Positions 3,001 to 6,000 of a DNA stretch of 16,685 bases are shown one piece after another. The DNA is from a virus, in the UHGV virus genome UHGV-0176901, one strand, 5' to 3'. A program made the position numbers. The first letter of the stretch is position 1; each line of letters opens with the position of its first letter.

Positions 3001-6000
3001 GTAGCTTGTCGGAGCTGATCGCCTCCTGACTTTGCAGATTTGCACGACGAGCTCTACGGCGAGAAGCTGCGGTTCCTTTAAATTCTGTTTTTCTGGACAT
3101 AGATTCCTCCCGAATAAACTTTGGCGATGCAATCTCGAAGCCCCTCCTGAGACGGTTGCTTCGGCATTGCATCCCACAGCTTATGTGGTTGGGTGATCTG
3201 GCTTTTCAGCCACGTAGTCGAGTGTTCGACGTTGTTTAAAGAGCCTGCCAGTCTGTTCCGTTTGGCTTCCAGCTTCCTGCTGATGACTAAATAGTACGGG
3301 ACGTAGTTGATTAAGTCAACACAAACACTCTAAATGTGGTTAGTTTTTTTATAACTCTATGTATTTTATTGATTTATATTTTGGGAAAGAAAGTTGGCGC
3401 CAAGTTTTCACCAAAAGTGGTGAAATCCCTAAACCCTGTAGCCCGTCAAGAAGCTGGCCCGTGGTGCAGGAGATTCACTAGGGGTAGTGCAGGAGATTCA
3501 CTAGGGGTAGTGCAGGAGATTCACTAGGGGTAGTGCAGGAGATTCACCACCCTGGTGCAGGAGATTCACTAGGGGGTGGTGCAGGAGCTGCACCCAGAAC
3601 CAGTCACTCTTTTGAACCAGTCAATGAACCTAAAAACATTATGTTCGAACATGTCCGAACAGAGTGTGAAAAAACTCCTGACCGTCACGAAGAAACCGAC
3701 AAGGCATTCGAGGAAATATTCTGGTGTGCAGGCATGCGGAAAGCCGGTCTCGGCAACCATTAGTTACGTCAATGGCGTTTAAACGCCATAGGAAGCGCTG
3801 TAGAGAGATAAACAACTGTCAGACATTAAAATGTACGTGTGGGCGTAAATATTGCGTCAGAATGCGATTCAGGAGGTTTGGGGTTGGTTCACCAGGATTT
3901 GGAGTGTGGTATTTTTGCTTGCATTAAAAATGCACGAGATGTACTATAATAGCGTGGTTACCAATGTTGGGAAGGAAATATGAACAACCTTAAGAAATAT
4001 CGAAAGTCAGTGAGCATCAGTCAAACAATACTTGCTAAGGCAGTTGGATGCACACAGGGGGCTGTCGGTCATTGGGAAAGTGGTCGTCGCATGCCAGATC
4101 TTAAAACATGCCGTGCTCTCGTTGCTTACCTGAACAAGTTAGGCGCAAATGTAAGTCTTGATGACGTGTTCCCGCCGGAACACAAAGCCGCTTAATAAGC
4201 GGGACTGCTCTTTGTAACAACGGACATTCGTCCTACGTCGCTGAAAAGCGAGTTCCAAGATATCTGACCAACTAAGGCTATATGCGTTTCCACGCATACC
4301 TTTCAACTAACTATTCACTATTGGTGAATTAACAAATGACACAAGCAAGTTACAGCAAGCCAACACAGCGAGAAATTGATCGCGCAGAAACTGATTTACT
4401 CATCAACCTGTCAACGCTTACCCAGCGCGGTCTGGCAAAGATGATTGGCTGTCATGAATAGAAAGCACAAATTACAGGAGAAGACACAATGAGTATGATT
4501 CTGATTGAGAAAGCAATGAGAACTAAGGTTGGGAACCCGCGAAGAAAACTGATTCTGCTTAAACTTGCCGATAACGCCAATGACAATGGCGAATGCTGGT
4601 TTTCATATCAAGATCTCGCTTATCAGTGCGATATTAGCAGATCGACAGTAATTGGTCACATTTTAGCACTGGAAAAGACTGGGGTTTTGAATTTGGAGCC
4701 AGGAAGTAACCAGCCGAAGTTTGCTCGCCTGATGCTTAAATAAGCATTAACAAACACAACCAATTGGAGGTGAAAAAATGAGTATGATTCTGATGGTGAA
4801 GGCAATGGGAGCCAAAGTTGGAAACCCGCTCAGAAAACTGGTTCTGCTTAAACTTGCCGATAACGCCAATGACAATGGCGAATGCTGGCCTTCATATCAG
4901 CATATCGCTGACCAGTGCGAGATTAGCAAACGCTCCGTGATTAACCATATTGAGGCTCTTTGTGAGGCTGGCTTGCTAAAAAAAGTCACCCGAAAAGGTG
5001 AAAAAGGCAACTCAAGTAATATCTATATTCTTCGGCTTGGGGGTGCAGGAGATTCACTAGGGGTAGTGCAGGAGATTCACCACCCTGGTGCAGGAGATTC
5101 ACTAGGGGGTGGTGCAGGAGCTGCACCCAGAACCAGTCACTCTTTTGAACCAGTCAATGAACCTAAAAACATTATGTTCGAACATGTCCGAACAGAGTGT
5201 GAAAAAACTCCTGACCGTCACGAAGAAACCGACAAGGCATTCGAGGAAATATTCTGGTGTGCAGGCATGCGGAAAGCCGGGAAGAAAAACGCAGCTTCAG
5301 CATTCAGAACACAGTTCAGGGAATGGCGTAAAACTACAAGGGGTACGGCAAGCGAGTTTGCCACGATGCTGGCAGAAGACATCGCATGCAGGAGTGGTAA
5401 GCAGTTCGGATTCGACAGGTTGTTACCATCGAGCTACCTGAACGGTCAACGCTGGAACGACGAGAAGCCAGAAACTATTCAACCACAATCCAAACCATCA
5501 TCCGCAATCACCGTATCGAAAACTGGCTACGTGTTTTTCGACAGGTGAACCATGAAATCAAAAATCAAATCGCTACTGGTCGCTGGTTATAACCACGGCT
5601 GGTTAAGTATTTCGTTTGTCGATTTCTGGTTTAAAAATCTCAATCCGAGGGAATCATGAGGCCAAGTGAACTCAGCGACCTGCTTTGGGCGCAGGTTGAC
5701 AGGGTGGCTCCGCACCTGTTGCCAAACGGCAAGAAAGAGGGGCATGAGTGGGTTGCCGGTAACGTCAACGGTGACAAGGGAAACAGCCTTAAGGTCAACC
5801 TTAGCGGCAAGAAAAAATGGGCTGATTTCGCTGAGGGAGACGGCGGTGACATGCTTGATTTGTGGATGGCATGTCGTGGAATTAACCTGCATCAGGCTAT
5901 GCAGGAAGCGAAAGCATTTCTCGGAATCAAGGATGACGATCACCATTTCGATGCCAAACGTGAGAAGAAATTCTCCAGACCTGACCGCAAGAAAATCGCC

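What the first reader, a model, noticed from the sequence alone, without database searches (positions are those of the whole stretch)
3101..3979. No cI-type repressor between divergent PL-like and PR-like promoters
N (leftward) and the cro-like gene (rightward) are flanked by recognisable nutL and nutR, and candidate PL and PR promoters are about 600 bp apart. The space between them, where lambdoid phages encode cI (and rex), has no plausible ORF on the minus strand and instead carries an O-gene origin fragment. The candidate operators at PL (GTTGAtTAAgTCAAC) and PR (TGCATTaaaAATGCA) also differ in sequence. This suggests a repressor-deleted or defective prophage, or control by a repressor encoded elsewhere.
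Basis: partly seen in the sequence, partly recalled or inferred. Interest (0 to 1): 0.7.

Follow-up and report, generated by a model that had tools for sequence, protein, structure and literature searches.

The report
Repressor-less lytic P22-like phage lineage
The repressor gene really is missing, but this is probably not a broken prophage: it looks like a complete, free-living relative of phage P22 that has lost its repressor, integrase and cII, an already familiar way for a temperate phage to become purely lytic.

Summary
Between N/PL and PR/cro (about 3321-3918) there is no cI remnant and no conserved ORF, and a copy of the phage's own replication origin lies at 3461-3747. The "defective prophage" reading does not hold. 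The window is an entire metagenome contig. The same PL–filler–iterons–O fragment–spacer element–PR–cro arrangement, with the same junctions, recurs in at least five independent assemblies, including circular contigs of about 40.8 kb at 70-400x coverage and one member about 8% diverged. In these genomes the tailspike gene abuts the early-left genes with no integrase. cII is cut to 41 codons, and no LexA-type repressor was found in the roughly 80% of the genome I could read. E. coli prophage relatives carry a 696-bp cI in this slot. Two sewage isolates, phiKp_30 and EC.P3, carry independent cI truncations. The homologous operator cores lie in the promoter spacers. Best reading: a naturally virulent P22-like lineage. 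The origin copy is most likely rearrangement scar DNA, though a working second O-binding site is not excluded. This is a new member of a known kind, of moderate interest.

The parts
2828..3100 (-). N antiterminator gene (90 aa)
   Evidence: Pfam N_peptide E=3.4e-32. 95-97% DNA identity to N of Stx and lambdoid phages.
3200..3245 (-). nutL: boxA 3235-3245, spacer dyad 3217-3230, boxB 3200-3211
   Evidence: Read directly from the sequence. Inverted-repeat pair with nutR (I1).
3291..3319 (-). PL promoter, TTGACT-17-TACTAT. The spacer holds the operator-homologous core TAC-N5-GTA.
   Evidence: Promoter scan. Aligned with PL of cI-bearing relatives, most differences fall in the operator positions.
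3321..3392 (.). AT-rich region upstream of PL, still homologous to cI-bearing relatives. Left homology ends at 3392.
   Evidence: BLAST of the window against L002 ends at 3392 = L002 3095, just before the cI terminator.
3393..3460 (.). 68-bp filler of unknown origin, with an 8-bp-stem hairpin TTTCACCA-AAAG-TGGTGAAA
   Evidence: Found only in lineage contigs. 97% identical in the diverged member L046.
3461..3747 (+). Non-coding copy of the O-gene origin: six 15-bp iterons (3464-3593), an AT-rich stretch, an 18-bp imperfect palindrome, and O codons up to about 168
   Evidence: 3510-3747 = 5043-5280 at 100%. Iteron counts in the copy are 6/5/5/5/3 across contigs, against 4 in every true origin. 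Frame-breaking indels occur between contigs.
3749..3878 (+). Copy of a gene-boundary spacer element (CTGTAG.GAGATAAAC ... CAGAATGCGATTCAGGAGG) that precedes the primase gene in relatives and ninB in this window
   Evidence: 76-80% identity to the O-primase spacer of phiKp_30 and two E. coli prophages. Element census.
3919..3947 (+). PR promoter, TTGCAT-17-TACTAT. The spacer holds the operator-homologous core CAC-N5-GTA.
   Evidence: Manual alignment to PR of VR50, L001, L002, phiKp_30 and 2B8. Not called by the consensus scan, because the -35 matches only 3 of 6.
3980..4195 (+). cro (71 aa)
   Evidence: HTH_3 E=1.5e-11. 84.5% identical to the Cro of cI-bearing relatives. This allele is found only in the lineage.
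4206..4250 (+). nutR (boxA, dyad, boxB)
4336..4461 (+). Truncated cII (41 of 98 codons)
   Evidence: Pfam Phage_CII profile positions 1-37 of 91. Identical to the L002 cII up to the stop.
4489..4743 (+). Partial duplicate of the O N-terminal domain (84 aa), replacing the 3' half of cII
   Evidence: HTH_36. 87.5% DNA identity to 4777-4928.
4778..5548 (+). Replication initiator O, with the true origin (4 iterons at 5043-5126)
   Evidence: tblastn to O of relatives E=8e-142. Iterons.

Best explanation
The window is part of the genome of an obligately lytic (virulent) P22-like podovirus lineage descended from a temperate lambdoid ancestor.

One ancestral rearrangement removed the LexA-type cI repressor gene and its terminator. 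It left patchwork DNA from the replication module in that slot: a 68-bp filler, a copy of the O-gene origin, and a gene-boundary spacer element.

The same lineage has a truncated cII and lacks an integrase, so it can neither set up nor maintain lysogeny.

Inferred, not shown: PL and PR are expected to fire constitutively on infection. N acting at nutL and nutR would extend both early transcripts. Cro, whose recognition helix is nearly unchanged, is the only remaining early repressor, and it probably still damps PL and PR through the retained operator cores in the promoter spacers.

The origin copy is most likely a scar that no longer codes for protein and drifts in iteron number. It may still bind O.
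For: Shown:
- cI-bearing relatives share both flanks and carry a 696-bp cI here.
- There is no cI remnant and no Pfam hit in any ORF of the gap.
- The same junctions occur in independent SPAdes, MEGAHIT and Logan assemblies from different samples. They also occur in L046, a member about 8% diverged that has a different N arm.
- Contig NODE_154 (40,813 bp, 296x coverage) has both ends inside the immunity iterons, with a 76-nt suffix/prefix overlap. Other contigs are 40,877 bp (MEGAHIT flag_3), 40,955 bp and 39,415 bp.
- The tailspike gene directly abuts the early-left genes, with no int or xis. Only an Arc-like protein and several antirepressor-like genes were seen.
- cII is truncated.
- The junction, the PL variant and the cro allele are absent from 5,426 complete E. 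coli genomes, the GTDB species representatives, IMG/VR and 50,697 phage records.
- phiKp_30 keeps only cI residues 1-34 and EC.P3 only residues 1-95. These are independent cI losses in sewage isolates of the same phage group.
- The origin copy varies in iteron number and carries frame-breaking indels.
Against: - No phenotype is available. Lytic lifestyle is inferred from gene content.
- About 8 kb of the genome (coat to gp16) was not read, so an oddly placed repressor or integrase is not strictly excluded.
- Metagenome coverage was not compared with host coverage.
- The filler and origin copy survived about 8% divergence, with the 68-bp filler at 97% identity. That is slightly more conservation than pure junk predicts.
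- Whether the altered operators are vir-type escape changes or simply a different ancestral immunity type is unresolved.
Confidence: 0.75

Rival explanations
1. The origin copy is functional. It would act either as a second origin between the divergent early promoters, activated by their transcription, or as an O-titrating iteron array that tunes replication or early transcription. In that case it is selected, not a scar.
For: The copy holds everything expected of a lambda-type origin by analogy: at least 3 iterons at native spacing, the AT-rich stretch and the palindrome. It is retained in every member, including the diverged L046. In the window, 238 bp are kept identical to the true origin, which suggests gene conversion.
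Against: Iteron number drifts (6, 5, 3), while the true origin always has 4. The post-iteron part is only 89% identical between the window and L046, with indels, which is no better than neighbouring non-coding DNA. The iterons lie 140 bp from PL and 325 bp from PR, too far to occlude either. No experiment exists.
Confidence: 0.15
2. It is a defective, repressor-deleted prophage sitting in a bacterial chromosome.
For: The early region is lambdoid, and its closest DNA matches are E. coli prophages.
Against: No contig of the lineage carries host DNA. The genomes close into circles of about 40.8 kb at high coverage. There is no integrase. The arrangement is absent from 5,426 E. coli genomes and from the GTDB representatives. 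A prophage without a repressor but with intact N, O, Q and lysis genes would kill its host.
Confidence: 0.05
3. The phage is still temperate or repressible. Control would come from a repressor encoded elsewhere in its genome, or by a resident prophage acting in trans on the remaining operators.
For: The operator-like cores TAC-N5-GTA and CAC-N5-GTA persist in both promoter spacers. An Arc-like repressor gene exists near the tailspike.
Against: No S24/HTH repressor was found in about 80% of the genome. There is no int and no partition or plasmid-prophage genes. cII is dead. The outer operator bases differ from those of the known cI type. No cI-bearing genome has this cro or PL allele.
Confidence: 0.05
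4. It is an assembly artefact: a chimeric join through the repeated iterons creates a false cI-less arrangement.
For: The 238-bp exact repeat and the iterons do break several assemblies (L010-L014, L025-L029).
Against: Both junctions lie in unique sequence (filler to iteron, and O fragment to element). They recur in different samples and assemblers, and in a diverged Logan contig.
Confidence: 0.02

Closest known systems
Temperate P22-like and lambdoid phages with the cI(c2)-OR-cro immunity region, for example the E. coli prophages in O157:H7 strain 611, HCP6S3_I2 and VR50, and phages 2B8 and E212
   Same: Same N, nutL, PL, PR architecture, cro family, nutR, cII start, O/primase replication module, nin region and Q.
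   Different: These phages carry a 231-aa LexA-family cI plus terminator between PL and PR, and a full cII. The window has neither. Its promoter spacers (operator positions) and its cro allele also differ.
Klebsiella phage phiKp_30 (LC768498) and Escherichia phage EC.P3 (PQ657771), sewage isolates with truncated cI
   Same: Same phage group. phiKp_30 covers 49% of the window at 95% identity, including the intein-bearing primase. The cI gene is destroyed and the genomes are small (33-34 kb).
   Different: Their losses are simple internal or 3' deletions that leave cI residues 1-34 or 1-95, and their operators are unchanged. There is no origin copy in the gap. These are independent events.
Laboratory virulent and clear-plaque mutants (lambda vir, P22 virB, cI/c2 deletions) and natural virulent derivatives such as mycobacteriophage D29 (from my own knowledge). 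Loss of integrase and cI in some Jilinvirus relatives is described in PMC11990801.
   Same: A temperate-phage backbone that has lost repression and grows only lytically. Operator positions are altered, as in vir mutants.
   Different: lambda vir keeps cI and carries point mutations in its operators. Here the gene is replaced, int is absent, cII is truncated, and the lineage circulates in nature across many samples.
lambda dv plasmids and auxiliary iteron arrays of iteron plasmids, such as P1 incA (from my own knowledge)
   Same: The ori - PR - cro - cII' - O' - O(ori) order resembles a partly deleted tandem duplication of a dv-like PR-to-ori segment. It places an initiator gene between two iteron arrays.
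   Different: There is no evidence of autonomous replication or copy-number control. The unit between the repeats would encode only a C-terminally truncated O.

Membership tests
Lambdoid immunity region (PL/OL - cI - OR/PR - cro) | Divergent early promoters, with N and nutL to the left and cro and nutR to the right | tested here: met
Lambdoid immunity region (PL/OL - cI - OR/PR - cro) | A cI/LexA-type (HTH + Peptidase_S24) repressor gene between PL and PR | tested here: not met
   tblastn with 5 cI proteins. Pfam scan of all ORFs in the gap. Relatives have it.
Lambdoid immunity region (PL/OL - cI - OR/PR - cro) | Repeated operators of one consensus at both PL and PR | tested here: inconclusive
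Only the core (T/C)AC-N5-GTA is shared by the two spacers.
Temperate phage (able to form lysogens) | Integrase/excisionase, or a plasmid-prophage maintenance module | tested here: not met
   The tailspike abuts the early-left genes in L009/L024, L025, L026 and L028. No int was found in about 80% of the genome. About 8 kb of structural region was not read.
Temperate phage (able to form lysogens) | Intact cII-type establishment activator | tested here: not met
   41 of 98 codons, then a stop
Virulent derivative of a temperate phage | A complete, host-free genome recurring as an independent replicon | tested here: met
   Circular closure of NODE_154. Contigs of 39.4-41.0 kb in four samples, and pieces in at least 14 assemblies.
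Virulent derivative of a temperate phage | Clear plaques, no lysogens, growth on immune lysogens | not testable with these tools
   Needs an isolate.
Lambda-type replication origin (second copy at 3461-3747) | Iteron array, adjacent AT-rich region and palindrome | tested here: met
   Judged by analogy with ori-lambda, from my own knowledge.
Lambda-type replication origin (second copy at 3461-3747) | O binding and initiation at the site | not testable with these tools
   Needs ChIP or origin mapping.

The most novel reading that the evidence does not exclude
The iteron array that replaced cI is not junk. On this reading, a virulent P22-like lineage has put a second O-binding origin between its two divergent early promoters. 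Negative supercoiling from PL and PR transcription could fire it early, or O bound there could feed back on early transcription. That would replace repressor-based control with initiator-based control.
Probability: 0.12. Interest if true: 0.6.

Novelty: new member of a known kind. Interest (0 to 1): 0.35.

Why it matters
It corrects a likely mis-annotation: metagenome pipelines would call this contig a temperate or defective prophage because of its lambdoid genes. It documents a naturally circulating, repressor-less and integrase-less P22-like lineage seen in many samples, next to two independently cI-truncated sewage isolates. Loss of lysogeny therefore appears to recur in this phage group, which matters for lifestyle prediction and for choosing phages for therapy. 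The conserved origin copy in the old cI slot offers a small, testable question about iteron function.

Tried and rejected
- Searched for the native context of the 68-bp filler and for the junctions in IMG/VR, GTDB genomes and JGI metagenomes. The only hit was another contig of the same lineage.
- Searched for a cI-bearing genome with the window's PL, PR or cro allele. None was found, so I cannot say whether the operator differences are vir-type mutations or an unsampled immunity type.
- Ran an Rfam scan of the whole window and found nothing.
- Considered the 67-aa ORF at 3724-3927, the only ORF intact in four close contigs, as a small repressor. I rejected it because it is frameshifted by an indel in L046 and is interrupted by a stop in the homologous element of L004 (my reading).
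- Considered minus-strand ORFs 3569-3760 and 3639-3815. They have no Pfam match and are broken by a 1-bp indel in L007.
- The lookup with the Gp49-like protein was uninformative, because the protein is too widespread.
- Literature searches for phiKp_30 and for the sample accessions found nothing.
- I could not reconstruct the exact rearrangement history. A dv-like tandem duplication followed by deletions is only a model.

Full report
**1. What is in the sequence**

The interval lies in a lambdoid early region. N is 3100..2828 on the minus strand (90 aa, Pfam N_peptide E=3e-32). cro is 3980..4195 (71 aa, HTH_3).

Both nut sites are present with the same layout of boxA, a short dyad, TACGT, and a boxB with a GAAAA loop. 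nutL spans 3200-3245 and nutR spans 4206-4250. From memory, this layout resembles the H-19B/933W type.

PL is TTGACT-17-TACTAT at 3319..3291 on the minus strand. PR is TTGCAT-17-TACTAT at 3919..3947. The consensus scan misses PR because its -35 matches only 3 of 6, but it aligns with the PR of cI-bearing relatives.

tblastn with five different cI proteins finds no remnant anywhere in the window; the only hit is the HTH of cro. None of the seven ORFs in the gap has a Pfam match at E<=1.

Positions 3510-3747 are a 100% copy of 5043-5280 inside the O gene. With two extra iterons the copy begins at 3461. It carries six GTGCAGGAGATTCAC iterons, against four in the true origin.

**2. What used to be there**

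E. coli prophages share both flanks. Examples are those in O157:H7 strain 611, HCP6S3_I2 and VR50. Window 2544-3392 is 96% identical to L002, and 3978-4463 is 91-92% identical. In these prophages a 696-bp LexA-family cI and a hairpin terminator sit between the flanks.

By eye, homology on the right resumes near 3900, at GTATTTTTGCTTGCATT, the -35 region of PR. The window has therefore replaced the terminator plus cI with about 500 bp of other DNA, in four pieces:
- a 68-bp filler (3393-3460) found nowhere except in this lineage;
- the origin copy (3461-3747);
- a 130-bp piece (3749-3878), 76-80% identical to the spacer that precedes the primase gene in phiKp_30 and two E. coli prophages, with a related element upstream of ninB in this window;
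- about 40 bp leading into PR.

Further right, cII stops after 41 of 98 codons. Its 3' half is replaced by a partial duplicate of the O N-terminal domain (4489-4743), which precedes the full O gene.

**3. It is not a prophage**

The window is the whole of contig NODE_1092 from ERZ1034973. Looking up three of its proteins returned only contigs of one lineage.

The same filler, iterons, O fragment, element and PR, with identical junctions, are spanned in L007 (40,877 bp, MEGAHIT flag_3, multiplicity 414), L009 and L034 (39,415 bp). Other assemblies break inside the iterons.

Contig NODE_154 of ERZ1034882 (40,813 bp, 296x) has one end running left into the filler and N, and the other running right into cro. 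The two ends share a 76-nt suffix/prefix overlap, so it is a closed circle cut in the iterons.

No contig carries host DNA. In L024, L025, L026 and L028 the tailspike gene directly abuts the early-left genes, where P22-like phages keep int and xis. None is present.

The rest of the map is ordinary P22-like: Rad52, SSB, kil, cIII, N, cro, O, primase, nin, Q, lysis, terminase, portal and coat. The unnamed ORFs hit an Arc-like repressor, an amidase, antirepressor families and families of unknown function in PHROGs, but no cI-like repressor. About 8 kb of structural genes was not read.

**4. The arrangement is old and confined to this lineage**

A Logan contig (L046, SRR14598896) has a cro 93% identical to the window's and a different N arm. 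It has the same left junction, the filler at 97% identity, three iterons, the O fragment, the element and PR. The rearrangement therefore predates about 8% of sequence divergence.

The junctions, the PL variant and the cro allele were found in no other collection searched:
- 5,426 complete E. coli genomes, where the best PL match is 86.5%;
- the GTDB representatives;
- IMG/VR;
- 50,697 phage records.

In the 15-billion-protein collection, the nearest Cro outside the lineage is 86% identical.

**5. Nothing in the gap looks like a gene**

Iteron number differs among contigs (6, 5, 5, 5, 3), while the true origin always has 4. The 23-bp unit shifts the reading frame.

A 1-bp indel in L007 and three indels in L046 break the O-derived ORFs and both minus-strand ORFs.

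The one ORF intact in the four close contigs (3724-3927, 67 aa) is frameshifted in L046. The homologous element of L004 has a stop in that frame.

**6. Operators**

Palindromes of those shapes occur 26 and 11 times in the window, against 17 and 4 expected by chance. The first reads ATTTA...TCAAC in L046. The second reads ...AACGCA in L007, L009, L034 and L046.

In cI-bearing relatives the operators are AGTAC-N5-GTACT sites inside the 17-bp spacers of PL and PR. The window keeps only the core there: TAC-N5-GTA at PL and CAC-N5-GTA at PR. The outer and central bases are changed.

Between the window and L046 the promoter cores are 86% identical, and the DNA flanking PR about 71%. The PL flanks and the filler are 95-97% identical.

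This pattern fits either vir-like escape from related repressors or an unsampled ancestral immunity type. I could not separate the two.

The Cro recognition helix differs from the relatives' by a single I-to-V change. Residual Cro control of both promoters is therefore a reasonable inference.

**7. Comparison with what is known**

Loss of repression that turns a temperate phage lytic is classical. Examples from memory are lambda vir, P22 vir, and D29 relative to L5. Loss of integrase and cI in some members of a phage group is discussed for Jilinvirus relatives in PMC11990801, which also states that Lederbergvirus phages normally carry cI, cII and Cro.

Within this same group, two sewage isolates have independent cI truncations. 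phiKp_30 keeps residues 1-34 and EC.P3 keeps residues 1-95.

The present lineage adds a more thorough case (no cI, no int, dead cII) that circulates in many samples. Its one unusual feature is the origin copy in the cI slot. The order ori - PR - cro - cII' - O' - O(ori) suggests a partly deleted tandem duplication of a dv-like segment, but that is only a model.

**8. Verdict**

"Repressor-deleted" is right, "defective prophage" is wrong, and the proposed operators are not supported.

The most likely explanation (about 0.75) is a natural virulent derivative whose gap is filled with rearrangement scar DNA. A functional second iteron site remains possible (about 0.12-0.15).

This is a new member of a known kind, of moderate interest.

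Noticed in passing
window 5656-8562 (intein about 6769-7794): The primase-helicase (968 aa) carries a 342-aa intein with a LAGLIDADG domain, inserted in the Walker A motif (GHGK|T). It begins with Ala-Cys-Pro and ends with His-Asn, followed by Thr. The intein-free allele in an E. coli prophage is 626 aa and 95-99% identical on both sides. phiKp_30 and E. coli FDAARGOS_943 encode a primase of the same 968-aa length.
   Followed up: partly
window 4336-4743: cII is truncated at codon 41. 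It is followed by an 84-aa partial duplicate of the O N-terminal (HTH_36) domain, 87.5% identical in DNA to the start of the real O gene. This is a second rearrangement of the same module, present in all lineage contigs.
   Followed up: partly
window 8670-8757 and 3749-3878; L003-L005 upstream of the primase gene: A conserved intergenic element (CTGTAG.GAGATAAAC ... CAGAATGCGATTMAGGAGG, followed 7-9 nt later by a start codon) precedes different genes in related phages: primase, ninB, and a dead start in the immunity gap. It may be a module-boundary or recombination linker, or a shared translation-initiation leader. There is no Rfam match.
   Followed up: partly
window 1-880 versus 10675-12860 (inverted); also 12398-13087 and 15429-15989: The window holds four to five paralogous antirepressor-like genes (ORF6N, Phage_pRha and ANT domains), in both early arms and after the lysis genes. 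That is many for a phage with no repressor of its own, and could serve to inactivate repressors of resident prophages.
   Followed up: no
L046 1-445 versus window 2800-3235: The diverged lineage member carries a different N gene and a different nutL boxB. The mosaic boundary falls at the nutL boxA (TTAAAGAGCC).
   Followed up: no
window 1156-2124 versus L007 5291-5659: Lineage members differ by a cassette swap in the early-left operon. The window has a 322-aa Glu/Ala/Lys-rich coiled-coil protein where L007 has a DUF2528 gene. An HNH endonuclease gene next to the tailspike is also variably present.
   Followed up: no
L006 (phiKp_30) 919-1143; L042 (EC.P3) 5012-5501: Two deposited phage isolates from waste water have truncated cI genes that are not annotated as such: residues 1-34 remain in phiKp_30 and residues 1-95 in EC.P3.
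   Followed up: yes
window 3642-3661 = 5175-5194; L046 homologue: The 18-bp imperfect palindrome GTTCGAACATGTCCGAAC next to the iterons appears in L046 as its exact reverse complement, with the two mismatched positions swapped.
   Followed up: no
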